Virus record (IMG/VR): IMGVR_UViG_2744054895_000001 | Span: 30,790 to 94,789 of that record | Length of the DNA stretch: 64,000 nucleotides | Source: a virus | Lineage: Duplodnaviria; Caudoviricetes | Strand: one strand, 5' to 3' | Shown here: positions 21,651 through 64,000 of the stretch, piece by piece | How positions within the stretch are numbered: the stretch's first letter is position 1 | Layout of the letters: each line of letters begins with the position of its first letter | Translations under genes and position numbers: made by a program | The notes under the pieces: generated by a model | Databases searched by the model: none | What the model saw: the letters and a program-made list of their open reading frames with translations, nothing else | What the model was told of the DNA's origin: nothing

Positions 21651-22533
21651 TTACTTTATGACTGCGTAGGAATTCGGACCGTAACTGTCCGCGACCTTGA
21701 AGTCCCATCCCTCGTGCGCGAACGTGAGCTGGGAAACGGCGAATGTATTGCTTCCAGCGTCGAGGTCACCAAAGGCAACCGAGGTGGGCCAAGCGTTGTA
21801 GAGGCGCCATACCGCCTTTACTGCTGCCTTGCTCTTGGTAACCGGGTGGTCGATGAGCATGATGTCGATCGTGGCCCGGAATTCTGAGCCGGTATCGGAT
21901 CCGGATCCGTTGCCCTGCATGACGTCGAAGAGCTGGTACATCCAGTTCACGAGTTTCTGGTCGCCCGGCATCATTCCCTTGGAAAGGGTGACGGGGCTGA
22001 AGTCGCTCTGACCCAGAGGCTGTTACCTCTCCGGTTTCCCGGAGCGGGCTGGTCATTTCTGCCAGCCTCTCGCATTCTCATGCGAGTTCGGACTCTATCT
22101 TCACCCCAGAGGGGTGTCCCGTACATAGTCTCTGGACCTTCCCGTCGGTTTCCCAGGCGGGCTCGGCTGCTGATTTTCCCTACCCTCGGACTTCTCAAGC
22201 CGTCGCGCTCAGGCTTTCGCCCCACGCTGTGGCGCCGAGGTCTAACAGGACGTTCCAGCAATTCTCGGGATTTTCACTCGCTACTTACGCAGCGAGGGCC
22301 CAGTCAAGTTGAGGCATTTTCTGAGTGGTCGTGTTCATGCCGCCGGCCCTGTATGCGATGACGTCAGTCGTCACGGAAAGGCCGGAAACCGACATGAAGC
22401 CGAGCTTTGGATAGGCAGAGGACAGCTTGCCGACCTGGCTGATCTGGACGTGGAACTTGAACGAGCGAAGGGGGTCCGTCTGTCGCGAGGCCAGGCTCTG
22501 GCTTTGCGAGACGGTCTTGAGGGTGGATGCCAT
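21651..22533 (-). CDS. Tail tube protein (T4 gp19-like), two exons 22533-22312 and 22013-21651, 194 aa spliced
   Basis: Exon 1 DPLRSFKFHV..GF..VSGL..YRAGGMNTTTQKMP joins in frame to GQSDFSPVTLSKG..WRLYNAWP..LTFAHEGW. Confidence 0.9.
22014..22311 (-). ncRNA. Group I self-splicing intron (298 nt, no ORF)
   Basis: 5' exon ends in U, intron ends in G; P AAUUGCUGGAA, Q AAUCAGCAGC, R CAGAGACUA, S AAGAUAGAGUCC; P1 GCCU/GGGC with U.G; P10 UGACU/GGUCA. Confidence 0.93.
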
Positions 22534-50188: not shown

Positions 50189-51190
50189 TCAGACGGCGAC
50201 GAGTTCCGCGGTGGAAAGCACCTCGCGGAGGGCCTCGTCGACCAGGACCTCGACGGCTTCGTCCAGCGCTGCCTGTGCCTGACGGCGGGCGGCGATGGCA
50301 CGGAGCTGCTCATCGAGCGCGTAGCTCGGGCTGTGGTCGAGGTTGTTTCGTGCGCGGTCGTACCGGCGGGTGGTGCGCGGGTCCGCGTGACCGAGCAGGT
50401 CTTGGACGGCCTCCAGCGGCTTGCCGCTCTCCAGCGCGAGGGTGGCGCAGGTGTGGCGGAGGTCGTGGGTGCGGATCACGCGGATGCCGGCGCGACGGCA
50501 CAGGCGCTTGACCATGTCCCAGATGCCCTGCCGGGTGATGCGTCGGCCGGTGGAGGTGATGATCAGCGCTCCGCTGGTGCGGCCGGCAAGGTATGCCTCC
50601 AGGGCCGCCCAGGCACTCGGAGGAATGACGATGGTCTGCCGTCGGCCGCCCTTGCGGGTGATGCGCAGGATCTTGTGTCCGCGCTCTTCGCCCAGGTCCT
50701 CGATGTTGGCGTTGACCAACTCGCTGACCCGCATGCCGGTCAGCAGGAGCATGTGGGCGACGGCCGCGCACCGCAGGCTGTACGCCTCGGCGCCACGCAG
50801 CAGTTGCTCGGACTCCTCAAAGGTCAAGCCGGTGGCCTGGGAGATGTTCGAGACCGGTTGGCGCTTCACCAGGGCGGCCGGGTTCCGGAAGACGATGTCC
50901 TCCAGTTCTGGCTCGGCCATGGCGTACTTGAACAGGCCGCTGACGACGGAGAGGTGTCGGTTCACCGAACCGTTGCCGTAGTTCTCGACGAGCCACTCCT
51001 TGAAGGCGTCCATCTGGAGACGCTTCTGGTTGAACGGGTCGAGACCGTGCTCGGCGCACCAGGTGAGGTAGTGGCGCAGGTCGCGCTTGTACTCCTCGCG
51101 TGTGCGGCCGGACTTGGTCAGAAGGAAGGCTCCGGCGACAGCGATCGGCTGGATCTGGCCATCGCTCATCAGCACAAGCTGCGCGCTCAC
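50189..51190 (-). CDS. Tyrosine recombinase/integrase (XerC/D-like)
   Basis: TGMRVSEL, HDLRHTCAT, LLGHADPRTTRRY; N-terminal SAM-like domain. Confidence 0.93.
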   Translation of the reverse strand: MSAQLVLMSDGQIQPIAVAGAFLLTKSGRTREEYKRDLRHYLTWCAEHGLDPFNQKRLQMDAFKEWLVENYGNGSVNRHLSVVSGLFKYAMAEPELEDIVFRNPAALVKRQPVSNISQATGLTFEESEQLLRGAEAYSLRCAAVAHMLLLTGMRVSELVNANIEDLGEERGHKILRITRKGGRRQTIVIPPSAWAALEAYLAGRTSGALIITSTGRRITRQGIWDMVKRLCRRAGIRVIRTHDLRHTCATLALESGKPLEAVQDLLGHADPRTTRRYDRARNNLDHSPSYALDEQLRAIAARRQAQAALDEAVEVLVDEALREVLSTAELVAV

Positions 51191-51757
51191 ATCAACGCCT
51201 TCCGTCGGTCGGGGAAGGCCCTCGGCGCTTGGTGCCCGCCAAGCAAGAAGGCCCGGAGAGTTCACCCGGTCGCGTTGCCCAACGCCTCCGGGGACTCTCC
51301 GAGCCTACTAGAAGAACAACTTGTTCCACAAGTTGTTAGTCAAGAGTTGTGCAGCTCAGACGACCCAAACCTCCGTCTCACTGACTATCCGCAACCGACT
51401 AGCGTCGCCGTCGGCAGCCTTCAGAGCCGCAGCTAACACCTCGGGCCAGACCTTCACCTCGGTCCGTACCCTGCCGTTGTGGGAGTTTCGCCGGCGAGTC
51501 GCCGCCCCCCGCCGCACGGCACGATCCCGCCGCATAGCAGCGTCCTCACAATCCAACCTCTGCCACGCGTTCGCACCGTGACGCACAACCCTGTCGAACG
51601 CGGAGGCGCGCTCCTTGAAGTCCTGACCCATCCGCTGCGCTCCCTGCATCTCGCTGCAAAGCAAGAGGGGCTGACCTCGGACTCCCGAGAACTCAGCCCC
51701 TCTTGCGTTAGATCAACTCTGATCCGGCAAGCCGCGCCCGCGGCTGCGGTAATAACG

Positions 51758-53751: not shown

Positions 53752-54231
53752 GCCGACCTCGCCTTATCCCGACTTACTCGCCCCGATCAACCGTGACCGA
53801 ACTGTCACCACCACGCTCGCTCGGCGCCCGGGACCGAATCCGACCTACGCGAGTTCCTCTTCGATGGGGTAGACCTCCGGGATCGGATGCCCCACGGGCT
53901 TTCGCAACCTATGCCTGTCGGCGTTGCACTGCGCAAGAAACTCAGAGGTCTCGCTATAGCGAGAGCGACCGCCACACTCACAACGCCAGCGATAGGCCGT
54001 CCTGGTACGGGAACCCTCGGCCGCGCTGCCTGATCGCGCCGCAGCCGCCTGGAGTGCACGCCCAACGATCAATGCCCCGCCCACGGCCACCGCGGTCACA
54101 CCACGGCCGGCCCATCTTCGGATCTTCATGGGCGGCACGGTAGCGCCGACCGATGGCCGATGCGCCCGTTTGGCTCAGTTCGTCGGTTTTACGAGTGGCT
54201 CGCTGGCCCCCGCCACGTCACATTCGAAGCC

Positions 54232-54837
54232 ATGAGCGAACGCGCCAAGCCCATGGTCCATCTATGGGAAATCATCCTCCGGGACAAGGCTTCCGACGAC
54301 AAGGACGACGTGAGCTTCGCCAAGTTCATGGAGTTTTGGGTCGGGTGGGGTCCGCCCATTGGCCTCGCGATCGGCGGCAGCCAGATGGCAAAGCACGGCG
54401 TGCCCGTCGCGTTGGCAGTCGTCGTCCCCCTCGCCGTATGGCTCGTCTGTTTCTGGTACGGCTACCTCAAGGCGAAGGTGCTGGCCCAGGAGATCGCACG
54501 AACTAAGACGTTCCTCCCCAACACCATTAAGACCAAGACCGAACTGCTCAGGTCCGCACTCACTGACGCAGCCGCCTTGTCAGAAGAGCTTCAGGCGGAG
54601 CTAAGGGCAGGGACGACAGCACTCCAGCGCATCCAACAGGAGGCCGCTGACTACAAGAGGCTGCGAGACCTCGACAGAGACGTGGCCGACACGGTCACTC
54701 GCTCCCTCGGCAGAGACGCCGCTCAGCGGGCTGCCAAGAGCGAGCGCAAGGCTCTCGTATGGAACGCCGTCTGGTTCTTGGCCGGCAGCGGCGTCACCTT
54801 GCTCGCCACTGTGTTCAGCCACTCGCTCACGCTGTGA
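54232..54837 (+). CDS. Membrane protein with coiled coil (moron-like)
   Basis: Two N-terminal TMs, central coiled coil, C-terminal TM. Confidence 0.6.
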   Translation: MSERAKPMVHLWEIILRDKASDDKDDVSFAKFMEFWVGWGPPIGLAIGGSQMAKHGVPVALAVVVPLAVWLVCFWYGYLKAKVLAQEIARTKTFLPNTIKTKTELLRSALTDAAALSEELQAELRAGTTALQRIQQEAADYKRLRDLDRDVADTVTRSLGRDAAQRAAKSERKALVWNAVWFLAGSGVTLLATVFSHSLTL

Positions 54838-55649
54838 CCAACGGCACAATGACGCTCCGTGTTGCCCAGCCCGGTTGCGTCGCCGACCGGTGCGCTGGAA
54901 AGCTGCTAAGCGTGACCGGCTCGGCGACTTTCGTGGCTCTCCGTCTACGAAATCGCGAAACCCACCCCAGTCACGCACGGCTACTGTCCTAATTGCTCGA
55001 CCCGGTGGCCATACAAGTGATCAGGGGGGAGTCGTCGGCTTTACCCGTTTAAGGGTGGGGGTGTCCGTTTCATTCCTTCTGTTTCAGCCAATAGTCATGC
55101 ACGACCTTGCATACATTCCCATGCGCGTGCGTATGCCCGTTTCGCACCCTATGTCGACTAGGACAGTCTCTCCACCGTTTGGGTAACTCCCAAATTCCCA
55201 TTTGGGTGCGCCCCCAACTGCGGAAACCTCGCCTGGTCACCTAAAAGGTTGTCAGTAGTGCGAAAGTCAACCCTCGCGCGACACCTTTTCCTGCATAAAG
55301 TCGACAGTTACAGTTCGTAAACAGATACTGTCAACCCAGGGTTGCGGAGTCGTGGGGCCACCCCCTGACAAACGGACCATCAGATACGCAGAGAGTTACT
55401 CAACGTGCATATATGCAGGTCACAGGCATAGATTCGGCCACGCGGATGCACTGTACCAATAGACCGTCAGTTACTTAGGCTTACCTCTGTCAGCAGTTAC
55501 AGAGCGTCAGAATGGCGGAAAGTAGCGAAAGTGGCTTGCTGGCTACCGAGCGTGCGCACGGCGCAGCATGGCACAACGCATCCACCTACTCACTGTGTGT
55601 ATGGGGGAAGCATGCCGACCACTTCCCGCACTCCCCGAAAAAATCCCTA

Positions 55650-55925
55650 GGCGCCGCTGTGAGCCGCTGTGAGGCAGGCGAGGCAGCGTGAGCCGTGACG
55701 AGGCAGCGTGAGCCGCTACAGGCGCCGCTGTGAGCCGTAGGCATACCGAGCAACCGTGAGCCGCTGGGAGCGCTACAGGCACCGCTAGGCAGCGTGCCGA
55801 CCGAACGTGAGCCGCTAGGCGCCGCTGTGAGCCGCTGTCAGGTGTCGAGCGGCGCCGCTGTAGCCATGGCGCACATGAGCGGCTGTGAGCCGCTGTGAGG
55901 CAGCGTGCCGAGCAGCTGCTAGCCG
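55650..55925 (+). repeat. Degenerate direct-repeat array, 8 x GTGAGCCG
   Basis: Copies at 55659, 55688, 55708, 55730, 55756, 55807, 55827, 55885; longer GGCGCCGCTGTGAGCCG three times. Confidence 0.8.
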
Positions 55926-56162
55926 TACCTACTGCCTACGTGGTGCATGCGTAGGGAGTGTGCCGACCACCCATCACCCCCTGAATCTCCAGGGCCGTCG
56001 AGCCATGAATCGGACATAAAGCCTCATATAGGGGCGATCGAGTGGCCGGCAATTCGTGGTCACGGAAAGTAGTTCCCTGTCACGATTGGTCACGCGCCGC
56101 AGGTCACGACAGGTGCGAGATGTCGAGATTCAAGAGATTGCGAGATGGCTCGCGATTCTGGG

Positions 56163-56192
56163 TTGTGCGAGGTACCTCGCACCACCTAATGT
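56163..56192 (+). promoter_or_regulatory. Putative housekeeping-sigma promoter TTGTGC-N18-TAATGT overlapped by a perfect 18-bp palindrome
   Basis: GTGCGAGGTACCTCGCAC at 56165-56182; about 100 nt upstream of boxA. Confidence 0.55.
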
Positions 56193-56252
56193 TCTCTGTG
56201 TCGGAACGAGGAACCACCGGAAACGGGGGAACCGAGTGAAGGCGGATGAATC

Positions 56253-56315
56253 GCACGGACGAAAGCCCTACGGGGTCAGTAGAAAGGCAGCGATCGTTCC
56301 TTGAGAACTCAACAG
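56253..56315 (+). promoter_or_regulatory. rRNA-operon leader / boxA antitermination mimic
   Basis: GGACGAAAGCCCTACGGGGTCAGTAGAAAGGCAGCGATCGTTCCTTGAGAACTCAACAG resembles the Streptomyces rrn leader as recalled (GGAGGAAAGCCCGAGAGGGTGAGTACAAAGGAAGCGTCCGTTCCTTGAGAACTCAACAG). Confidence 0.8.
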
Positions 56316-56319
56316 TGGA

Positions 56320-56985
56320 TATAGACGCACGGGAACGGTAACGACGTTTCTGCGCGGGGGTCGAGGGACCCCCACTATCGGCCGACGTGTCGATAGGGCG
56401 TGCATGCAACAGGGGTGAGGTATGCCTACTGTTGCCGAAGGATTAGAGTCCGGGACCAAATGCGCGTGGCTAGACGTCCGTGGCTTTCACAGCATGGAGA
56501 CAGATAGTCAGTGGATACGTGGTGGCAAGAGCTAACACAGAGGTACCGCCACCGTTACCCGTAGCGTCACTCTCTCTCATATCGCGCCGGATTTATCTGT
56601 GCGCGATACGGGGAGCGTTGCTCTTACAGGGCGCTCCCCTACCCTCTCTGTTTGGTCCGTTTACCGACGGACAACGCAGTACCGAGAGAGTCTGTCTAGG
56701 TTTCCGGTTGGAATCCAAGCTAAACCCACCATGCGTTCAGTGTGCTAGCACTGCATGGCCGTCGTCTGATGACGTAAGTGAGGGGTGTCGTGGGGTCTAG
56801 CAGCCCCAAGTAGGTCAGTTACATCGAGGCCGAATCCCGGGTGCTTTCACAGGTCCTAAGCGAATTCCGATTCCTAGACGCTCTCTCAATCTCATGCACT
56901 ACGGTGCGGCAGGGGCATGCCGGCTTGTCATGCGCGCATTTCCCTGCCGTAGCCGAGAGCCAACGGAGTGGTGTCCGTTGGTCAC
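56320..56985 (+). ncRNA. Candidate large structured leader/ncRNA
   Basis: No credible ORF; many hairpins; long-range stems 56324-56338/56552-56568 and 56684-56700/56873-56887. Confidence 0.55.
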
Positions 56986-57003
56986 CCATGAGAGGAGAGA
57001 ACA

Positions 57004-57489
57004 ATGTCTCATCGCCAGGCGATTACCCGTGAGGATTACCTGTCGGCGCTGAGTGCCGCCCAGTTCGGCGATGTCGCTCCGTTTCTGGCGCGATGCTGCC
57101 CGGACTGCGGTGCGGGTGATGAGTCCGCATCGGATGGGAAGCACGCTGTCATGGGCGGCAGTGTCGTGATCGGATGCGACGGATCCATGCTCGTGAACCC
57201 CAATCTTCTGGGATTCAACGTGGAACTGTGGCTCGACTGGCGTCATATGGAATCCGACAACGTGCCCGAGGACGCCTCTGTGTGGGCATATGAGGGCGTG
57301 ATCTGGCGGACCGGCGCGAAGGTGCGTCCGGCCCGGCCGACGGAGTACGAGGACGGTCTGACCGGAACTCTCGTGCGTATTGCCCTGGAGCACAGCTTCG
57401 GCGATACCGAAGCAACGCTCTGGGTCCAGTGGCACAACAACACGAGCGGTCCGGACTATCACGGATACGGTGACATCGTTCTGATCTGA
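57004..57489 (+). CDS. hypothetical Cys/His protein (paralog of 60233-60931)
   Basis: GAGAGGAGAG RBS; CPDC..HAVMGGSVVIGCDG..VNPN..WLDWR. Confidence 0.75.
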   Translation: MSHRQAITREDYLSALSAAQFGDVAPFLARCCPDCGAGDESASDGKHAVMGGSVVIGCDGSMLVNPNLLGFNVELWLDWRHMESDNVPEDASVWAYEGVIWRTGAKVRPARPTEYEDGLTGTLVRIALEHSFGDTEATLWVQWHNNTSGPDYHGYGDIVLI

Positions 57490-57490
57490 A

Positions 57491-57558
57491 AGTCGTCCCG
57501 GCGACTCTAAATAGGCGTTAGGCCGGGAGCGTCCGTACGGAATTCCGTACGGGGTCGC
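57491..57558 (+). ncRNA. Pistol self-cleaving ribozyme 1
   Basis: P1 AGUCG/CGACU, loop UCCCGG pairs with CCGGGA, UAAAUAG, P2 GCG/CGC, UUAGG, GCGU, P3 CCGUACGG hairpin, G|U site 57554/57555. Confidence 0.9.
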
Positions 57559-57611
57559 AGCAGCGCTGCGGGTCAGGGGTGGTGCCCTGTCTGTGTCGAG
57601 AGGAGAGAGCA

Positions 57612-58139
57612 ATGAGCATCAGTCCGATCAACTGGTCCGAGCGCATCATGCGTCCCCGGTCCGGTGCGTGGAAGCAGTGCCCTAACTGCAAGCGGCGGAA
57701 CGTCTCCATTCGCTCCCCGCATTCCCACACCGACGGCCGACCGTGCAAGTTCGTGGTGATCTACCGCACGTACTTCACGATGGACATGATCCATGACGGC
57801 GACTACGGCCAGATCAGGAACGAGGACGGCTCTTTCGGTGACGGTCCCCTCCAGACTTACGAGATTGTGGACTGCGCGCCGAAGGACGTCTCCGGTCCAT
57901 GGGACAACCCCGTCAAGCTCGCAATCGACGCCATTCGTGACGCCGATTGCGCGTACGACGAGGGTGCCGACTGGTTTTACCACCACGACGGCTCGTACAT
58001 CCGAGACCACTACTCGGGTGAGCGCATCGACCCGTCCGCGCACCTCTGGGGGTTCACGGACGAGGAAGACGAGCGCGTCCACCACGTGATCCAGCGCGGG
58101 TGGAAGCAATTCTGGGCGAGCCTGCGTAAGGCCGCCTAA
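57612..58139 (+). CDS. hypothetical protein (CxxC..H..C)
   Basis: GAGAGGAGAGAG RBS, ATG 57612. Confidence 0.75.
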   Translation: MSISPINWSERIMRPRSGAWKQCPNCKRRNVSIRSPHSHTDGRPCKFVVIYRTYFTMDMIHDGDYGQIRNEDGSFGDGPLQTYEIVDCAPKDVSGPWDNPVKLAIDAIRDADCAYDEGADWFYHHDGSYIRDHYSGERIDPSAHLWGFTDEEDERVHHVIQRGWKQFWASLRKAA

Positions 58140-58140
58140 C

Positions 58141-58208
58141 AGTCGACTCGGCGACTCTAAATAGGCGTTAGGCCGAGTGCGTCCGTACGGAATTCCGTGC
58201 GGGGTCGC
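58141..58208 (+). ncRNA. Pistol self-cleaving ribozyme 2
   Basis: Same fold with compensatory pseudoknot ACUCGG/CCGAGU; G|U site 58204/58205. Confidence 0.9.
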
Positions 58209-58241
58209 AGGGGTGGTTCCCTGCCACGAGAGGAGAGAGCT

Positions 58242-58952
58242 ATGTCTGCGCAGACCCTCGAAATGGTTGCGTCCGACTTTCTGTACGGCTCCACCGAGGA
58301 GGCCCTGAACGAACTGTTCGCGGCCCCGCCGGCCATGGAGCCGCACACTGACGCGCGCTTCGACAAGGGCAACGACACGATCGTCATCGACGGGGTGCAG
58401 TTCTACGCCAAGCGCGTGGACTACCACCGTGAGATGGACGAGAAGTTCGTCCAGTGGGTGATGGAAAACCGCCAGGGGTTTCCGGTCTACGGCGACCCGT
58501 CCTCTGCGGACGGCGAGTCGTTGGAACTCTGGGCACAGTCCATCACGGACAAGTACTTCGGGTCCCCCTACATCTCCGGCATCGACACGGACGGCTACGA
58601 GTCGTTCATGCCGAACGGGGTCAAGGGCCAGTTCTTCCGGTACGAGGACGAGACGTACGTCGCCCTGTGGCAGCAGTGCACCGGATACCGCGCACGCACG
58701 CGTCCGATGGTGTTCCACGTGTCCTGCCACGAGTCCGCCTACCTGCTGGACGACGACAAGGCCACGGCGTACTGCACCGAGTGCGAGGACGTCGTGTTCG
58801 ACATCGAGTCCGGCGGGCAGCACATCAAGCGCATCGACCGGAACGGCGAAGAGATCGACGACGCCCCGGAGGTGTCATTCGACGACCTGGTCGGCCATCC
58901 CGTCTGCCCCAAGTGCGGTTCCGATCTGCGTGTCGAGGCCGCGAATTTCTGA
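58242..58952 (+). CDS. hypothetical acidic protein with C-terminal zinc ribbon
   Basis: RBS; CTEC...CPKCG. Confidence 0.75.
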   Translation: MSAQTLEMVASDFLYGSTEEALNELFAAPPAMEPHTDARFDKGNDTIVIDGVQFYAKRVDYHREMDEKFVQWVMENRQGFPVYGDPSSADGESLELWAQSITDKYFGSPYISGIDTDGYESFMPNGVKGQFFRYEDETYVALWQQCTGYRARTRPMVFHVSCHESAYLLDDDKATAYCTECEDVVFDIESGGQHIKRIDRNGEEIDDAPEVSFDDLVGHPVCPKCGSDLRVEAANF

Positions 58953-58961
58953 ATTCATTCA

Positions 58962-59021
58962 TGCCGAAACTCCGTGAGGAGTCGTCCCAAGGTGGTGCTT
59001 GGGACCTGATGATGGCAGCCA
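58962..59021 (+). ncRNA. Type II hammerhead ribozyme 1
   Basis: UGCC-GAAA-CUCC(GUGA)GGAG-UC|GUCCCAAG(GUGGUG)CUUGGGAC-CUGAUGA-U-GGCA; cut after 58983. Confidence 0.92.
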
Positions 59022-59053
59022 ATGTCTGAGTCAGTGTTGAGAGGAGAGAGCTT

Positions 59054-59617
59054 ATGTCTGACCTGCGCATCTACGTGGCGAGTCTGTCCGACTACAACAA
59101 CAGCATTCTCCACGGTCGATGGATCGACGCTGACCAGGATGTCCAGGCCATCAACGATGAGATCGCTGAGATGCTGAAGGAGTCGCCTGCGGCCCAGAAG
59201 TATGGCGATGTCGCGGAGGAGTATGCCATCCACGACTACGACGGATTCGGGGATTTCAATCTCGGCGAGTATGAATCGCTGGAGAAGATTACGTCCATTG
59301 CCAAGGCACTGGATGAGTTTCCCTCTTGTGTAGTCGCTTGGTTCTTCCGCGAGTGCTCCCACATGGAGTTCGACGAGATTGTGGACACCATCCGCGAGAA
59401 GTCGATCACCACGATCGAGGATCAGTGGGGCAATGAAACGGACGCGCTGGCTGAGTATCTCTTCGACCAGATCGAAGAGAGTGGTGACCTGCCGGAGCAG
59501 TACAAGAATCACCAGATGGCCATAGCCAAGAGCATGGCGCACGATGCCGTCTGCGGCGGGGAATACAACATCCTCTACGAGGGCGGCGGCAAGTACCACA
59601 TCTTCGAGGTCCTGTGA
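59054..59617 (+). CDS. ardA: Antirestriction protein ArdA (DNA mimic)
   Basis: RIYVASLSDYNNSILHGRWIDA..EEYAIHDYDGF..LGEYESL; very acidic. Confidence 0.88.
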   Translation: MSDLRIYVASLSDYNNSILHGRWIDADQDVQAINDEIAEMLKESPAAQKYGDVAEEYAIHDYDGFGDFNLGEYESLEKITSIAKALDEFPSCVVAWFFRECSHMEFDEIVDTIREKSITTIEDQWGNETDALAEYLFDQIEESGDLPEQYKNHQMAIAKSMAHDAVCGGEYNILYEGGGKYHIFEVL

Positions 59618-59622
59618 CCAAT

Positions 59623-59682
59623 TGCCGAAACCCCTTCGGGGGTCGTCTCAGGGTGGTGCCTGGGGCCTGACGATGGCAGCCA
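59623..59682 (+). ncRNA. Type II hammerhead ribozyme 2
   Basis: UGCC-GAAA-CCCC(UUCG)GGGG-UC|GUCUCAGG(GUGGUG)CCUGGGGC-CUGACGA-U-GGCA; cut after 59644. Confidence 0.92.
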
Positions 59683-59705
59683 TTGTCGGTTTCGAGAGGA
59701 GAGTT

Positions 59706-60140
59706 GTGACGAGACACGCTATCCGGGCGATGCGAGGAATAATGCGTCGCAGGGATCAGGACTACGCGTGGATTCCATCGCTGGGCCATGGAGTTCTCTA
59801 TGACCCCGATAACCCTACCTGCCCGCACTCTGTCACAAGAGCGGCAGTTCGTGCGCTCCCGAGCGGAACACGCACGATGTCTTGCAGGATAAGTAACAGG
59901 TCTCGCGCGTTGGAGCTCGTAGTCCGAGAATTGGCTACGGAATGGTACTGCGACATCGCAGACATACGATCTATCGTGGCCGACAGGTTCCGGGGATTCG
60001 GGGACAGCGAACAATCCGCACTCGACGATGCAATCACGAGTGGCCTTACTTCCCCGACTTCTCTGGAGAACGTCAAGCACGGGTGCATGACGGAATTCCG
60101 CAAGACGCCGTTCGGTGTGGTCATGCTCGATCAGGGTTAA
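59706..60140 (+). CDS. hypothetical protein
   Basis: GTG after GAGAGGAGAG; lower GC than neighbours. Confidence 0.65.
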   Translation: MTRHAIRAMRGIMRRRDQDYAWIPSLGHGVLYDPDNPTCPHSVTRAAVRALPSGTRTMSCRISNRSRALELVVRELATEWYCDIADIRSIVADRFRGFGDSEQSALDDAITSGLTSPTSLENVKHGCMTEFRKTPFGVVMLDQG

Positions 60141-60146
60141 TCAAAA

Positions 60147-60206
60147 GCCGAAACCCCTTCGGGGGTCGTCGTGGGGTGGTGCCCACGGCCTGATGACGGC
60201 AGCCGC
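60147..60206 (+). ncRNA. Type II hammerhead ribozyme 3
   Basis: GCC-GAAA-CCCC(UUCG)GGGG-UC|GUCGUGGG(GUGGUG)CCCACGGC-CUGAUGA-C-GGC; cut after 60167. Confidence 0.92.
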
Positions 60207-60232
60207 TGAAGTCAGTTCTGAGAGGAGAGAGC

Positions 60233-60931
60233 ATGAAGCCCGAGGAATTGGAGTACCTGGACGCCGTGCGTCAGACACCCCTCGGACGCATCGAGCCTTA
60301 CCTGTCTTCGGTCTGTCGTGACTGCGACGGACAGGTGGACTCGTCGAATTTGGCTGGGCACGTGATGATCGGCTCACATGTCGTTATCTGCTGTGAGGGT
60401 TACTTCATGGTGGACCCGAACGTGGTCGGCATCCCGTCGCCGAATTGGTCGGACTGGCGCGAGAAGGCAGAGTCCAATCCCAAGTCGCTGTATAAGCAGG
60501 GTGAGTTCCTGGCTGCGCACGCCCTAGAACTGGGCGTCTCGTACGACAGCGATCTTCCTGCGTCCGCCTTCCACCCGAAGCTCGTCGGCGCGGCCATTGC
60601 CGCTCTGCGTGCATGGCTGGAGGTCAACTGGGGCAGCGCAGCAGTCCGCGAGGCCGAAAAGGAGGCCCTCGGTCACACCGGAGACGGGATGTATGTCGGC
60701 ACGGTCGACAAGCTCAACTACCAGGGGAAGACCCTGTGGGTTGGTGATCGTGTGCGCTGCGCGAACCAGGATGCGCAGGGGAACGACCTGTCTTTCTCCG
60801 GGGTGCTAGCCAAGATCGAGCTGGAGTACTGGGGGTCCGAACTGAAGCCGACGGTCAATGTGCGCGCTCCCGAAGCGACGCACGACGATCCGATCGGATG
60901 GGAGGACCTGAGCCGCGTAACGTCGTCGTAG
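60233..60931 (+). CDS. hypothetical Cys/His protein (paralog of 57004-57489)
   Basis: CRDC..HVMIGSHVVICCEG..VDPN..WSDWR. Confidence 0.75.
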   Translation: MKPEELEYLDAVRQTPLGRIEPYLSSVCRDCDGQVDSSNLAGHVMIGSHVVICCEGYFMVDPNVVGIPSPNWSDWREKAESNPKSLYKQGEFLAAHALELGVSYDSDLPASAFHPKLVGAAIAALRAWLEVNWGSAAVREAEKEALGHTGDGMYVGTVDKLNYQGKTLWVGDRVRCANQDAQGNDLSFSGVLAKIELEYWGSELKPTVNVRAPEATHDDPIGWEDLSRVTSS

Positions 60932-60948
60932 TTTGGATTCGCCTACAA

Positions 60949-61010
60949 GCCGAAACCTCCGAGAGGAGGTCGTCGTGGGGTGGTGCCCACGGCCTGATGA
61001 AGGCAGCCGC
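60949..61010 (+). ncRNA. Type II hammerhead ribozyme 4
   Basis: GCC-GAAA-CCUCC(GAGA)GGAGG-UC|stem I-CUGAUGA-A-GGC; cut after 60971. Confidence 0.92.
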
Positions 61011-61037
61011 TGAAGTCAGTTCTGAGAGGAGAGAGTT

Positions 61038-61538
61038 ATGGGTCTGAGCAAGCAGGATGTCCGCGCGATCAGGAACGCTGATGGACTGGTGTTCTTCCAC
61101 AACGCCCCGATTTCTCGGGGCGGTGAGCGCATGAACTGGCTCAAGTGCATCCGCGACGGTTCGAAGACTTCGAGTGGTTTCGAGGACTTCCACGTCGTCC
61201 GGCTGGAGAGCACGTCCATCACGTACTACGGGGAGGACGCGCACACCAAGCACTCGGCGTCCCTCGGTGACGAAAAGGTCGTCGGGTCCGTCTACATCAG
61301 CTCCCCCGGCATGCTGCCGCAGCATGAGACCTGGATGCGAGCGCTCCGCGAGGGTGATGAACTCCGGGTCCAGATGTGGCTGGGCAACAACAACGGCTAC
61401 CTCAAGGAGTCGGGGATGGCGCATGACTACGCGTGGTTGGACATCCGGCGCCCGAAGACGGACGCCAGGACAAGGTACTGGCTGGGCAATGTGATCTGCC
61501 CGGCGACCAGCACGTGCCGCATGCTGAGGGCGCTCTGA
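61038..61538 (+). CDS. hypothetical protein
   Basis: Strong RBS, 166 aa. Confidence 0.75.
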   Translation: MGLSKQDVRAIRNADGLVFFHNAPISRGGERMNWLKCIRDGSKTSSGFEDFHVVRLESTSITYYGEDAHTKHSASLGDEKVVGSVYISSPGMLPQHETWMRALREGDELRVQMWLGNNNGYLKESGMAHDYAWLDIRRPKTDARTRYWLGNVICPATSTCRMLRAL

Positions 61539-61602
61539 ACCAGCGGTAGAAGGCTCGCCGGCTGAGGTGTGTTCTCTGTCGGCGGCCCTGCCGTGCCTAA
61601 TT

Positions 61603-61662
61603 TGCCGAAACTCCGTGAGGAGTCGTCGTGGGGTGGTGCCCACGGCCTGACGAAGGCAGCCA
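61603..61662 (+). ncRNA. Type II hammerhead ribozyme 5
   Basis: UGCC-GAAA-CUCC(GUGA)GGAG-UC|stem I-CUGACGA-A-GGCA; cut after 61624. Confidence 0.92.
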
Positions 61663-61694
61663 ATCGCTGAGTCAGTATTGAGAGGAGAGAGCAC

Positions 61695-62519
61695 ATGAGC
61701 ATCAGAAAAGTGCTGGTCTCGGCTGATGACGTTCACGCGTACGAAGCCATGGTCGACACGGAGGCTCCGCTGTGGAACGGGTTTCTTTCGCCCCGCTTCA
61801 CTCTGGAGGCCGTGAAGCAGATAGCTTCTGACATGCAGGAGGATCTGAAGAGGTCCGGCTACGCCGATCAGGAGGAGATCCGCGTCATCGAGGCCCCCGG
61901 TTTGTTCGGGGAAAGCGAGGACAGGGTCGACGAGTTCGGCGAGCCGATCCAGATCCCTGCGGTGGTGGTGCTCCATATCAGTTGGACGTACGTCTTCGAT
62001 GACGACCCGGAGTCCTGCGCGAAGGTGGTTGCGCCCGGCAAAGACGGGTTGTACGCCGTTGGCGCATGGGAGTGGACGTGGAGCGAGATCAGTCCGAACA
62101 TCTCCCAGCGCGCGGAGTATCTATTCGACTTCGCGACCGCGGCCATCAATGAGGCTGTCTGGTACGAAGTCGAGCCGACTGAGGACGACGAGGACCAGAC
62201 GCTCGGCATGGAGTGGGAAGCCGTCGAGGCCCTGAACCTGGGGATCAACAGCGTGCATCTCAACATGCGCTCCGCCTTCATGTCCGCGCTCGGGGAGTTC
62301 ATCGACGCCAATGCGCAGGTGCTGAACGGCATCCCTGCCGACCAGGCCGGCTATGCCTTCTGGCACTCCATGCGCGGGGTGGACGGCATCAAGTCCCGTT
62401 CGTTCCTCGGAAGGCGTGAGATCCCCGCAGAGGTTCGCCAGCGTCTCCACGAGACGGCGCGTACGCACTCGTACAGCAGCGTTCGATTCGTCGGAGACAT
62501 GCTCCACATCGAGAGCTAG
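61695..62519 (+). CDS. hypothetical acidic protein
   Basis: Strong RBS; WNGFLSPRFT..GLYAVGAWEWTW. Confidence 0.75.
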   Translation: MSIRKVLVSADDVHAYEAMVDTEAPLWNGFLSPRFTLEAVKQIASDMQEDLKRSGYADQEEIRVIEAPGLFGESEDRVDEFGEPIQIPAVVVLHISWTYVFDDDPESCAKVVAPGKDGLYAVGAWEWTWSEISPNISQRAEYLFDFATAAINEAVWYEVEPTEDDEDQTLGMEWEAVEALNLGINSVHLNMRSAFMSALGEFIDANAQVLNGIPADQAGYAFWHSMRGVDGIKSRSFLGRREIPAEVRQRLHETARTHSYSSVRFVGDMLHIES

Positions 62520-62527
62520 CTCAACAA

Positions 62528-62589
62528 TGCCGAAACCTCCGAGAGGAGGTCGTCGTGGGGTGGTGCCCACGGCCTGATGAAGGCAGCCA
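62528..62589 (+). ncRNA. Type II hammerhead ribozyme 6
   Basis: UGCC-GAAA-CCUCC(GAGA)GGAGG-UC|stem I-CUGAUGA-A-GGCA; cut after 62551. Confidence 0.92.
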
Positions 62590-62620
62590 ATCGCTGAGTC
62601 AGTGTTGAGAGGAGAGAGCT

Positions 62621-63217
62621 ATGCGGACTGCTTCAACTATGATCGGTTTCGCGATCGTCGAGGACGACGACTTCGACCTGGAGAACTTCAGCGACTCCGA
62701 AGCGCTCATCAAGGAGTGCGGCGAGAAGCTGGAGTCTGGGGAGTGGACCGTCTGCGGCATCGTGGCCGTGGTCCACGGCGAACTTCGATACGAGGCCGCC
62801 CTGTGGGGCACCGTCATCGAGGGCTGGCACTTCGGCAGGTACAAGACCGTGGAGGACATCCGCGACCCGTACCTCCGAGAGGTCGCCGAGGACATCGCCG
62901 ATCAGGCGCAGGATCTCATCCCGGTGACGCACGCCGACGACTCACCTGACGCGCTGGTCGGTCACGTGGTGGCCGTCCGGCCGTACTACTACGAGCCATC
63001 CGGTCCCGGATCCTTCCGCTCCAAGCGTTCCCCATTCATCGCCCGTGCGGAGGTGAAGGAGACGTTCGGGGAGGAGATGGTCGTCCTGCGGTTCCTGGAG
63101 GACGCCGGTCCGTGGCCGCGCGACGGTGCCTACTACCCGCGCGAGTTGCACAAGGTGCAGGCGTGCAAGTGCCCCGCATGTACCTCCGGTGGCATCGGCA
63201 TACACCAGGGAGCTTGA
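62621..63217 (+). CDS. hypothetical protein
   Basis: Strong RBS, acidic N-half, C-terminal CxCxxC. Confidence 0.72.
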   Translation: MRTASTMIGFAIVEDDDFDLENFSDSEALIKECGEKLESGEWTVCGIVAVVHGELRYEAALWGTVIEGWHFGRYKTVEDIRDPYLREVAEDIADQAQDLIPVTHADDSPDALVGHVVAVRPYYYEPSGPGSFRSKRSPFIARAEVKETFGEEMVVLRFLEDAGPWPRDGAYYPRELHKVQACKCPACTSGGIGIHQGA

Positions 63218-63280
63218 TCCAGACGCAGAGGACTCGTCGGCTTGCCATGCACGTCGGCCGACGGATCCGCCATGCCTTAT

Positions 63281-63343
63281 TGCCGAAACCTCCTGCAAGG
63301 AGGTCGTCACGGGGTGGTGCCCGTGGCCTGACGAAGGCAGCCC
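63281..63343 (+). ncRNA. Type II hammerhead ribozyme 7
   Basis: UGCC-GAAA-CCUCC(UGCAA)GGAGG-UC|GUCACGGG(GUGGUG)CCCGUGGC-CUGACGA-A-GGCA; covarying stem I; cut after 63305. Confidence 0.92.
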
Positions 63344-63370
63344 TTGGTCAGTTCTGAGAGGAGAGAGCAC

Positions 63371-64000
63371 ATGATCAGCACCGGCAAGCCCGAGGTCAAC
63401 CCGGCTACCTTCGTGCTCGCGGAGGATGACGGGGTGGTCACGGTACAGGTGTCCGTCACCTACCCGATGGATGGTGAGGCCATCGTCGCCAAGCTCTACG
63501 CGGCGTACAGCAAGCCGTTCGAGAACGGCACGCCCCTCCCCGAGCAGTTGACCATGCAGGACGTCATGCGCACGCTCGCGCAGGAGTCCGCCAACTGCGC
63601 GGACGGCTGGCACTTCTGGGAGTCCGAGCCAGGCCAGGCGGCGTGGGACGCGGTTCATCCGTGGGCGGAGGCTCAGGTCCGTCGTCTCTTTCCCATGCTG
63701 ACGTGGCCAGAGGAGCAGTGGTCCGAGTATGCCGAGGTCGGCCGGATGGTCGAGCATCTCCGGCAGATGGGGATCCCCGCCGAGGAGATCAGCACAGGTG
63801 GCGGCTGCTGGGCCGCGCGTGTGGCGCTTTGCCAGGGGCACGATCTGAACCTGACCATCGCGTCCGGTGAGGACTGGTGTTGGCAGATCTACCGCGAGGG
63901 CGAGCAGAGCATGGCCGGCTACTGGCCGGGGTCTGACATTCCGCGTGCCGCCCGGCGCACCAAGAAGCTCATCAAGGGGCTCGGCAACGTGGTTGCCTGA
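63371..64000 (+). CDS. hypothetical protein
   Basis: ATG 63371 after GAGAGGAGAGAG; stop at window end. Confidence 0.72.
   Translation: MISTGKPEVNPATFVLAEDDGVVTVQVSVTYPMDGEAIVAKLYAAYSKPFENGTPLPEQLTMQDVMRTLAQESANCADGWHFWESEPGQAAWDAVHPWAEAQVRRLFPMLTWPEEQWSEYAEVGRMVEHLRQMGIPAEEISTGGGCWAARVALCQGHDLNLTIASGEDWCWQIYREGEQSMAGYWPGSDIPRAARRTKKLIKGLGNVVA

What the first reader, a model, noticed from the sequence alone, without database searches (positions are those of the whole stretch)
56320..56985. Unannotated ~650-nt highly structured RNA between boxA and the first gene
The region has no credible ORF but dense pairing. Hairpins: GGGGGUC/GACCCCC, CUAUCGGC/GUCGAUAG, GCAACAG/CUGUUGC, UAUCGCGC/GCGCGAUA, GGGGAGCG/CGCUCCCC, GUCCGU/ACGGAC, CCAUGC/GCAUGG, GGCAGGG/CCCUGCC. 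Two long-range closing stems: GACGC-ACGGG-AACGG 56324-56338 with CCGUU-A-CCCGU-A-GCGUC 56552-56568, and GAGAGAG..GUCUAGG 56684-56700 with CCUAGAC-G-CUCUCUC 56873-56887. GCUUUCACAG occurs twice (~56483, ~56843). It sits where rRNA would follow an rrn leader. It may be a new large phage ncRNA, comparable in size to GOLLD/ROOL, but I cannot assign a family.
Basis: partly seen in the sequence, partly recalled or inferred. Interest (0 to 1): 0.75.

Follow-up and report, generated by a model that had tools for sequence, protein, structure and literature searches.

The report
Structured RNA leader of phage operon
The stretch is the long untranslated head of a Streptomyces phage's early operon, built of separate folded RNA modules behind a copy of the host's ribosomal-RNA leader; one 245-base module is a conserved, previously undescribed RNA, while another part is an optional insertion.

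Summary
The hairpins and both long-range stems exist, and 56320-56985 folds better than shuffles (z -4.4, but equally on both strands). No Rfam family matches at E<=10. It is not one 650-nt RNA but a modular, gene-free leader of a temperate Streptomyces myophage. The order is: promoter inside a palindrome (56161-56192), rrn-type leader with the boxA word (56253-56318), domain 1 (56324-56568), hairpins H1-H3, a 210-nt block (56677-56886), a 3' three-way junction (56887-56993) touching the ribosome-binding site, and gene 1 at 57004. Domain 1 is real. It is kept in 4 viral records, with 331 of 332 pair cells standard on the + strand against 288 of 332 on the - strand, and 8 pairs with compensatory changes against 2.8 in shuffles. 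It is better conserved than the upstream non-coding DNA. The 210-nt block is missing from one relative and replaced in another. In distant kin the same boxA word heads arrays of tRNAs, with a tmRNA where I checked. Here it heads domain 1 and an operon (ArdA among others) cut by 2 pistol and 7 hammerhead ribozymes. My reading: antitermination-dependent transcription, with domain 1 enclosed by a leader-trailer-like helix and probably released as a stable RNA. Its function is unknown and no RNA data were available.

The parts
56161..56192 (+). Candidate early promoter (TTGTGC 56163-68, 18-nt spacer, TAATGT 56187-92) lying inside a 13+13-nt palindrome (56161-73/56174-86) that could be an operator
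   Evidence: The palindrome is reported (I1, 92% complementary). The hexamer positions are invariant or TANNNT-compatible in 3 aligned relatives. The strict sigma-70 consensus scan found nothing, so the promoter is inferred.
56253..56318 (+). rrn-type leader with the boxA-containing word (TTGAGAACTCAACAGTGG at 56301-56318)
   Evidence: It is shared at 82-85% with Likavirus Streptomyces phages just upstream of their first early gene and with linear Streptomyces plasmids. The same word occurs in 26 viral contigs. In two isolate-type runs a contig of roughly 5-7 times the phage's depth is alike only over 56248-56317 and then runs on differently. I read that contig as the multi-copy host rrn leader, which is an inference.
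56324..56568 (+). Domain 1: a conserved 245-nt multi-helix RNA. A 16-bp outer helix (56324-39 with 56551-68) and an 11-bp second helix enclose four hairpin arms. A 3' hairpin carries a large loop that is invariant in the four sequences.
   Evidence: RNAalifold on 4 sequences gives 83 pairs. 331 of 332 cells are paired on +, against 288 of 332 on -. Eight pairs change on both sides, against 2.8+-1.2 in 500 shuffles with 0 of 500 reaching 8. Identity to the window is 90% (G004) and 88% (G003), against 55-69% for the upstream non-coding DNA. There is no Rfam hit.
56569..56676 (+). CU-rich linker (CACUCUCUCUCA) and three hairpins: H1 56580-56608, H2 56610-56639, H3 56655-56672
   Evidence: H1 is kept in 4 sequences, with 2 clean compensatory pairs (CG to UA, UA to CG) among the 4 pairs that one search counts as changed on both sides. 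The stretch 56495-56676 is alike in the X14 contig. Three related records stop inside or just after H2.
56677..56886 (+).
   Evidence: A 14.6-kb contig of run X14 joins 56676 directly to 56887 ('skips 210'). Run X7 has about 382 unlike letters between 56594 and 56890. A 224-nt soil contig (X1) matches 56682-56905 with 4 changes. The fold z is only -2.15. There is a single copy in the record.
56887..57003 (+). 3' leader module: a three-way junction closed by UCUCAUG (56890-96) with CAUGAGA (56987-93). The closing helix overlaps the first bases of the purine-rich ribosome-binding tract GAGAGGAGAG (56990-99). The start codon is at 57004.
   Evidence: The fold z is -4.8, with 0 of 200 shuffles as good. 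The stretch is alike in both X14 (56887-57000) and X7 (56890-56995). In X7 the sequence on both sides is too different to be laid. No Rfam ribozyme family matches at E<=10.
57004..64000 (+). Downstream early operon: ten genes, each of the first nine followed by a self-cleaving ribozyme. Pistol ribozymes start at 57491 and 58141. Hammerhead II ribozymes start at 58962, 59623, 60146, 60948, 61603, 62528 and 63281. ArdA is at 59054-59617.
   Evidence: Rfam matches above gathering score (confirmed). ArdA matches Pfam PF07275 at E 7e-25 and PHROG 2059.

Best explanation
The interval is the untranslated, modular leader of the phage's early (anti-restriction) operon, transcribed rightwards from a probably repressor-controlled promoter at about 56163-56192.

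The first ~120 nt copy the host-type rRNA-operon leader with its boxA word. I infer that this loads the Nus-factor antitermination complex. RNA polymerase could then cross ~800 nt of untranslated, hairpin-rich RNA and the 7-kb ribozyme-cut operon without Rho-dependent or hairpin termination.

Eight bases after the boxA word begins the 5' strand of a long interrupted helix. Its 3' strand lies 230 nt downstream. The helix encloses a conserved five-arm RNA (domain 1), as the leader-trailer helix encloses 16S rRNA. I infer that this helix forms co-transcriptionally and is cut by a double-strand RNase. That would release a ~245-nt stable RNA whose job is unknown, possibly a decoy or regulator that stands where kin carry tRNA/tmRNA arrays.

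The remaining parts are separate. There are three hairpins, a dispensable 210-nt insertion, and a conserved three-way junction that abuts the ribosome-binding site of gene 1 and probably sets the stability or translation of that first message.

Shown: the anatomy, conservation, covariation and strand of domain 1, the modularity, and the kin context. Inferred: the promoter, Nus loading, processing, and any function.
For: Domain 1 is kept in 4 of 4 close records that reach it. 331 of 332 pair cells are standard on the + strand against 288 of 332 on the - strand. Eight pairs have double changes, and 0 of 500 shuffles reach 8. It is the best conserved non-coding piece of the neighbourhood: 88-90% identity against 55-69% upstream.

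The leader 56253-56318 recurs in front of early genes of Likavirus phages and on linear Streptomyces plasmids. It also matches a contig of about 5-7 times the phage's depth in two lysogen-like runs.

Three distant kin (TerL 55-65%) have the same boxA word followed by tRNA genes: 3, 23 and 24 in the census (the 3 come from a locus cut after 583 nt). For the two records scanned with Rfam there is also a tmRNA. Protein genes follow on the same strand in G013. The leader therefore drives untranslated stable-RNA operons in this lineage.

Contigs of runs X14 and X7 bridge from the leader through to gene 1 and the first pistol ribozyme, so the whole is one continuous locus. The outer helix is 16 bp plus 11 bp and starts 8 nt after the boxA word. 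Leader-trailer helices and boxA-dependent complexes in rRNA synthesis are described in PMC10250234 (abstract read).
Against: There is no RNA evidence: no RNA run holds the stretch. The outer helix and several inner helices are invariant in the 4 sequences, so they carry no covariation for or against. Only 4 close sequences could be aligned. The covariance model of domain 1 found nothing at E<=1 in 33 more distant related records or in 23 other boxA-bearing loci, so the RNA is confined to one narrow clade.

In the X14 relative the middle of domain 1 (56354-56494) is replaced by 143 letters less than 80% alike. A released RNA with a conserved function might be expected to keep its core. The identification of the high-depth contig as the host rrn leader rests on depth and on my recollection of actinobacterial rrn leaders, not on an annotated record. 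The strict promoter scan found nothing.
Confidence: 0.5

Rival explanations
1. It is a purely cis-acting 5' untranslated region. Domain 1 and the other modules stay on the gene 1 message and act only as a 5' stabiliser, a translation regulator, or part of the antitermination signal (as phage nut or put RNAs do). No separate RNA product is made.
For: The locus is continuous with gene 1. The conserved parts in the X14 relative are the outer helices, the 3' hairpin and H1-H3 rather than the core. The 3' module touches the ribosome-binding site. Likavirus phages and plasmids use the same leader directly in front of protein genes.
Against: 245 nt with five arms is far larger than I recall known antitermination RNAs to be. 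In kin the same position holds stable RNAs. The long closing helix directly after boxA mimics the rRNA processing stalk.
Confidence: 0.3
2. It is one large ~650-nt structured non-coding RNA of the GOLLD/ROOL kind.
For: The whole interval folds with z -4.4, and no ORF is credible.
Against: 56677-56886 is absent from one relative and 56595-56889 is replaced in another. No Rfam family matches at E<=10. The modules fold independently.
Confidence: 0.07
3. The 3' module (56887-56993), or another part of the leader, is an unrecognised self-cleaving ribozyme. It would separate the leader from gene 1, completing the one-ribozyme-per-gene layout.
For: Each of the first nine operon genes is followed by a ribozyme, so every gene after the first has one just upstream, but gene 1 itself has none upstream. 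The module is a conserved island in X7, like the pistol ribozyme. It is a compact three-way junction with z -4.8.
Against: No known ribozyme family matches at E<=10. No homolog sequences could be retrieved, so no conserved core can be defined.
Confidence: 0.12
4. It is non-functional debris: remnants of a lost tRNA/tmRNA array or of mobile-element insertions, which fold well only because of GC-rich palindromes.
For: Kin have tRNA arrays here. The 210-nt block behaves like an insertion with inverted-repeat ends. The energy z-score is equal on both strands.
Against: Domain 1 is more conserved than its non-coding surroundings and changes in a pair-preserving, strand-specific way. ARAGORN finds no tRNA or tmRNA; lowering its threshold to 80 or 70 gave only scattered weak calls that I take for noise, and Rfam finds none.
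Confidence: 0.06
5. It is a ligand- or tRNA-sensing riboswitch-like leader controlling the early operon.
For: It has the position of a leader, a multi-helix junction, and junction and loop sequences that are invariant in the four sequences.
Against: No riboswitch or T-box family matches. No terminator or anti-terminator alternative is evident: the terminator scan found 0. The boxA leader argues for constitutive read-through.
Confidence: 0.04

Closest known systems
Bacterial rRNA operon leader: boxA antitermination element plus the leader-trailer helix (PMC10250234, abstract read; the Nus-factor and boxA papers appear only in the listing)
   Same: A promoter-proximal boxA-type word similar to the host-type leader. 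A long-range helix begins a few bases later and encloses a structured untranslated RNA. In kin, tRNAs are co-transcribed behind the same leader.
   Different: The enclosed RNA is 245 nt and unrelated to 16S rRNA (no Rfam hit). Protein genes follow. Binding of Nus factors and RNase III cutting are untested.
Phage-encoded tRNA arrays with tmRNA in large Streptomyces myophages (kin records G011 and G013; named relatives by TerL at 56%: BRock, Alone3, LuckySocke, GiJojo, pSt2308)
   Same: The same boxA word lies at the head and the phage lineage is related (TerL). Untranslated stable RNA comes first and protein genes follow downstream.
   Different: Here there is no tRNA or tmRNA at all. A single novel RNA domain occupies the place.
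Ribozyme-flanked genes in prophage operons (Perreault et al. 2011, PMC3088659, passages read; pistol class, PMC4604425, seen in a listing only)
   Same: The downstream operon has single genes, including ardA, flanked by hammerhead ribozymes. That paper reports the same for an Agrobacterium prophage.
   Different: The interval under study is not itself a known ribozyme. That a structured RNA and an rrn-type leader head such an operon is not mentioned in the passages I read.
Large bacterial and phage non-coding RNAs such as GOLLD and ROOL, and the RAGATH motifs found near ribozymes (RAGATH named from recollection; it appears in the listing)
   Same: A structured non-coding RNA of unknown function in a phage, next to self-cleaving ribozymes.
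   Different: The conserved unit is much smaller (245 nt). No Rfam family matches. The distribution is limited to one clade: 4 records plus 2 runs.

Membership tests
Any Rfam 15 family (GOLLD, ROOL, riboswitches, 6S, RNase P and self-cleaving ribozymes are, as far as I recall, in that library) | A covariance-model match at or near the family's gathering score | tested here: not met
   cmscan of 55300-57300 and of 56570-57010 at E<=10 gives only sub-threshold noise of 14-21 bits. The whole-window gathering scan hits only the downstream ribozymes and a group I intron elsewhere.
rrn-type antitermination leader (boxA) | A promoter-proximal sequence like the host's rRNA-operon leader with a boxA element | tested here: inconclusive
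   56248-56317 is at least 80% alike to a contig of about 5-7 times the phage's depth in runs X7 and X14, which continues differently. The same word heads tRNA arrays in kin. No annotated Streptomyces rrn operon could be reached, so identity with the host leader is inferred.
rrn-type antitermination leader (boxA) | Binds NusB/NusE and makes RNA polymerase termination-resistant | not testable with these tools
   This needs binding or read-through assays.
Leader-trailer (processing-stalk) helix around a stable RNA | A long-range helix whose 5' strand follows boxA and whose 3' strand follows the enclosed RNA | tested here: met
   56324-39 pairs with 56551-68 (16 bp, two bulges), followed by an 11-bp helix. 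It is predicted in the single fold and in the alignment fold. All 16 outer pairs are invariant in the 4 sequences, so there is no covariation test.
Leader-trailer (processing-stalk) helix around a stable RNA | Cleaved by RNase III to release the enclosed RNA | not testable with these tools
   No RNA run holds the stretch.
tRNA or tmRNA | Cloverleaf or tRNA-like domain recognised by ARAGORN or Rfam | tested here: not met
   ARAGORN finds 0 genes in the window. At lowered thresholds it gives only scattered, overlapping low-quality calls. There is no Rfam tRNA or tmRNA hit.
Known self-cleaving ribozyme classes (hammerhead, pistol, twister, twister-sister, hatchet, HDV-like) | A match to the class consensus inside 56320-57003 | tested here: not met
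   No hit at E<=10, although the same scan finds 9 ribozymes downstream.
Miniature inverted-repeat element (for 56677-56886 only) | Terminal inverted repeats and presence/absence polymorphism | tested here: met
   The ends are an imperfect inverted repeat. The block is exactly absent in the X14 contig, and 2 bases (CA) fit both sides of the joint.
Miniature inverted-repeat element (for 56677-56886 only) | Multiple dispersed copies | tested here: not met
   There is a single copy in the 94.8-kb record, none in the held loci, and none in viral contigs by a 22-nt end word. Host genomes could not be searched.

The most novel reading that the evidence does not exclude
A clade of temperate Streptomyces myophages has taken over the host's whole rRNA-making route: an rrn-type leader, boxA antitermination, and a leader-trailer helix cut by RNase III. 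It uses this route to manufacture a new 245-nt stable RNA in the slot where its kin make tRNAs and tmRNA. This RNA would act early in infection, together with ArdA and the ribozyme-cut operon, as an RNA-level counter-defence or host-takeover factor.
Probability: 0.25. Interest if true: 0.8.

Novelty: new variant of a known kind. Interest (0 to 1): 0.5.

Why it matters
If the reading holds, it shows three things. First, phages borrow the rRNA-operon leader to drive long untranslated RNA: tRNA/tmRNA arrays in some, a novel structured RNA in others. Second, such a leader can head a ribozyme-punctuated early operon. That gives a concrete reason why such operons escape Rho after each cut. Third, it supplies a new, compact, covariation-supported RNA domain for structural and functional study. 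It also corrects the first impression of a giant 650-nt RNA. The stretch is a chain of separable modules, one of them optional.

Tried and rejected
**RNA evidence.** The single run search listed 15 DNA-type holders with small shares and no RNA holder, so nothing can be said on expression.

**More homologs of domain 1.** All of these came back empty or nearly so:
- A 21-nt invariant loop word found only 3 viral contigs, 0 genome contigs and 0 metagenome contigs.
- The covariance model R1 found nothing at E<=1 in 33 related records, and only one weak match (11.4 bits, E 0.28, in L079) across 23 other boxA-bearing loci; I do not take it for a homolog.
- BLAST against phages and plasmids found only the boxA leader.

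**Homologs of the 3' half.**
- Protein 57004-57489 has 3 database relatives. One is a shorter, 100%-identical form; the other two are 63% and 66% identical.
- Locus retrieval by this protein or its alignment failed in the viral, genome and metagenome collections.
- Words from the 210-nt block, the 3' module and the pistol unit gave 0 viral contigs.
- A low-stringency BLAST against all held loci gave nothing new.

**Other tests that led nowhere.**
- tRNA or tmRNA remnants: none credible.
- The GCUUUCACAG repeat and a domain 1/domain 2 duplication: not above chance.
- Trans targets of three conserved single-stranded pieces inside the phage genome: only the self-antisense site stands out.
- Direct terminal repeat in the record: none. 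The only repeats are the ribozymes.
- Relatives of a virus record cannot be drawn, so Streptomyces genomes could not be searched.
- Literature: searches for pistol/hammerhead with Streptomyces phage, boxA with Streptomyces phage and the boxA word itself found no paper describing this RNA. These searches cover only the held open-access library.
A 210-column model was used instead.

Full report
**1. What the window is**

The window is the last 64 kb of a 94.8-kb IMG/VR 'provirus' record. It belongs to a contractile-tailed phage, with a tail sheath, a portal and a large terminase. Its nearest named relatives by terminase (56% identity) are large Streptomyces phages: BRock, Alone3, LuckySocke, GiJojo and pSt2308. 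A tyrosine recombinase lies at window 50189-51265. In two isolate-type sequencing runs, relatives sit at about single-copy depth. The phage is therefore probably temperate.

The finding lies in a 2.1-kb gene-free gap between 54838 and 57003.

**2. The observation**

- The interval folds better than all 20 dinucleotide shuffles (z -4.44).
- The reverse complement scores the same (z -4.42), so energy does not give the strand.
- No Rfam family matches at E<=10.
- The longest stop-free run in 56200-57003 is 108 codons, and it crosses a block that relatives lack.
- The repeated decamer is not above chance: 47 of 300 shuffles do as well.

**3. What follows it**

Downstream is a plus-strand operon of ten genes. 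Each of the first nine is followed by a self-cleaving ribozyme: two pistol and seven type II hammerhead, all above the Rfam gathering scores (repeated). One gene is ArdA. The other nine have no Pfam or PHROG family.

This layout, including ardA flanked by hammerheads, was described for prophages by Perreault et al. 2011 (PMC3088659, passages read). It is not new.

**4. What precedes it**

At 56161-56186 there is a 13+13-nt palindrome. It contains a candidate promoter, TTGTGC-18 nt-TAATGT. The hexamer positions are conserved among three relatives although the surrounding DNA is only about 60% alike. The strict consensus scan did not call it, so it is an inference.

From 56253 to 56318 runs a leader that ends in the word TTGAGAACTCAACAGTGG.
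- The leader is shared at 82-85% identity with Likavirus Streptomyces phages. There it lies 120-225 nt before the first early gene.
- It is shared with linear Streptomyces plasmids.
- The word itself occurs in 26 viral contigs.
- In runs X7 and X14, a contig of about 5-7 times the phage's depth is alike only over 56248-56317 and then continues differently. I read this as the host's multi-copy rRNA-operon leader. That rests on depth and on my recollection of actinobacterial rrn leaders, because no annotated Streptomyces rrn operon was within reach.

**5. Kin**

The terminase brought in 33 related viral loci.
- *Close relatives.* Three close relatives share the region at 86% identity: G003 and G004 and G034 (found).
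- *Distant kin.* Three distant kin (G011, G013 and the record of L073) have the same boxA word followed by tRNA genes: 24, 3 (locus cut after 583 nt) and 23 respectively. Rfam adds a tmRNA in the two records scanned. Protein genes follow on the same strand in G013. In this lineage the leader therefore drives untranslated stable-RNA operons.
- *Other carriers.* Among the other boxA-bearing contigs, most have a protein gene within about 100-230 nt. Several have gene-free leaders of 400-1000 nt with no Rfam hit.

**6. Domain 1 (56324-56568)**

In the four sequences (window, G003, G004, G034) RNAalifold predicts 83 pairs.
- On the plus strand 331 of 332 pair cells are standard pairs.
- Eight pairs in three helices change on both sides, against 2.8 +- 1.2 in 500 column shuffles; none of the 500 reaches 8.
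- Sliding the partners by 1-3 columns drops pairing to 30-46%.
- The mirror structure on the minus strand has only 288 of 332 cells paired, because 44 G-U cells become A-C. The RNA is therefore on the plus strand.
- Window-to-relative identity is 88-90% in domain 1. It is 55-69% in the non-coding DNA upstream and 85% in the boxA leader.

The outer 16-bp helix begins 8 nt after the boxA word and closes 230 nt later. It is invariant, so it carries no covariation evidence either way. Hairpin H1 behind it shows two clean compensatory pairs.

A covariance model of 56341-56550 found nothing at E<=1 in 33 more distant related records. In 23 other boxA-bearing loci it gave only one weak match (11.4 bits, E 0.28), which I do not take for a homolog. 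The domain is confined to a narrow clade.

**7. Modularity**

Laying contigs of four runs on 54000-60000 gave three results.
- A 14.6-kb contig of X14 runs from the upstream region through the leader and domain 1. Its middle, 56354-56494, is replaced by 143 letters less than 80% alike. It joins 56676 directly to 56887, continues through 56887-57000, and goes into gene 1 up to the first pistol ribozyme.
- A 2.2-kb contig of X7 is alike over 56190-56594, 56890-56995 and 57486-57590. It has about 382 and 324 unlike letters in between.
- A 224-nt soil contig (X1) matches 56682-56905 with 4 changes.

Three conclusions follow. The locus is continuous from leader to operon. The last ~105 nt before gene 1 form a conserved island, comparable in conservation with the pistol ribozyme.

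That island folds as a three-way junction (z -4.8, 0 of 200 shuffles as good). Its closing helix overlaps the start of the purine-rich ribosome-binding tract. The 210-nt block folds only marginally better than shuffles (z -2.15). It is single-copy in the record.

**8. Mechanism**

The steps that are shown are these:
- a non-coding, plus-strand, pair-conserving RNA domain directly behind an rrn-type leader;
- the same leader heading tRNA arrays, with a tmRNA where checked, in kin;
- continuity with a ribozyme-cut operon;
- the modular make-up of the rest.

The steps that are inferred are these:
- the leader loads the Nus antitermination complex, which would explain how polymerase crosses ~800 nt of untranslated hairpins and then an operon whose transcript is repeatedly cut;
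- the outer helix of domain 1 plays the part of the leader-trailer helix of pre-rRNA (PMC10250234, abstract) and is cut to free a ~245-nt RNA;
- the 3' junction tunes the first message.

The main rival is that nothing is released and the whole acts in cis. A further possibility, not exclusive of the others, is that the 3' junction is an unrecognised ribozyme.

**9. Left unexplained**

The three close records (G003, G004, G034) all stop within about 10 nt of each other, inside or just after hairpin H2. They contain no pistol or hammerhead II anywhere.
- The ends are not at gene boundaries, unlike the other ends of G000 and G034, and not at a tRNA.
- They are most likely contig edges.
- A repeat, an attachment site (G004 has a large serine recombinase at its far end) or a DNA end could cause this. 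I could not tell which.

**10. Verdict**

The interpretation as one giant RNA is not. What stands is a new, narrowly distributed 245-nt structured RNA domain in an rrn-mimicking leader, plus a conserved 3' module and an optional insertion. The function is untested.

Earlier notes of this scan mention other ribozyme-punctuated phage operons that begin with a large conserved non-coding RNA. I did not test those and they are leads only. Supplementary files of the cited papers were not consulted.

Noticed in passing
window 57491-63346: Nine self-cleaving ribozymes (2 pistol, 7 hammerhead type II), one after each of the first nine genes of the early operon. The hammerhead units are 74-95% alike to each other and each is followed by a near-identical GAGAGGAGAG ribosome-binding tract. 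ArdA is one of the flanked genes.
   Followed up: partly
window 22069-22321 (- strand): A full-length match to the group I intron family (68.5 bits, gathering score 50) in the tail-gene region, between a tape-measure-like gene and the sheath gene. The host gene and any homing endonuclease were not examined.
   Followed up: no
window 55600-55970: A cluster of direct repeats of the word GCCGCTGTGAGCCG and related 17-40-nt units (families D1-D4). GGTCACG repeats lie at 56059-56108. These look like binding sites (iterons or operators) upstream of the early promoter.
   Followed up: no
L037 1-20, L038 1895-1915, L045 1-25 (equivalent to window ~56625-56640): Three related viral records end within about 10 nt of each other, inside or just after hairpin H2, and lack the whole ribozyme operon. 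The cause is unknown: a repeat, an attachment site or a DNA end.
   Followed up: partly
L050 4915-9118 and L051 5431-8920 (- strand): Distant kin carry about 16 and 21 tRNA genes plus a tmRNA behind the same boxA word. One tRNA in L050 lies upstream of the boxA word.
   Followed up: partly
L080 3501-3978 and L081 3501-4072: Linear Streptomyces plasmids carry the same boxA leader, followed by 410-540 nt without an annotated gene, next to a divergent GntR-family regulator gene.
   Followed up: no
L047 2787-4838: The far end of relative G004 encodes a 683-aa large serine recombinase with a C-terminal DUF4096 (IS4/5 transposase N-terminal) match. The window's own record has a tyrosine recombinase instead (window 50189-51265) and no Resolvase-domain (PF00239) match.
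   Followed up: partly
L058, L070, L071, L075/L076 downstream of the boxA word: Other viral contigs have 570-1000 nt without an ORF of 90 aa or more behind the boxA word, and no Rfam hit there. Long untranslated leaders behind this word may be recurrent.
   Followed up: no
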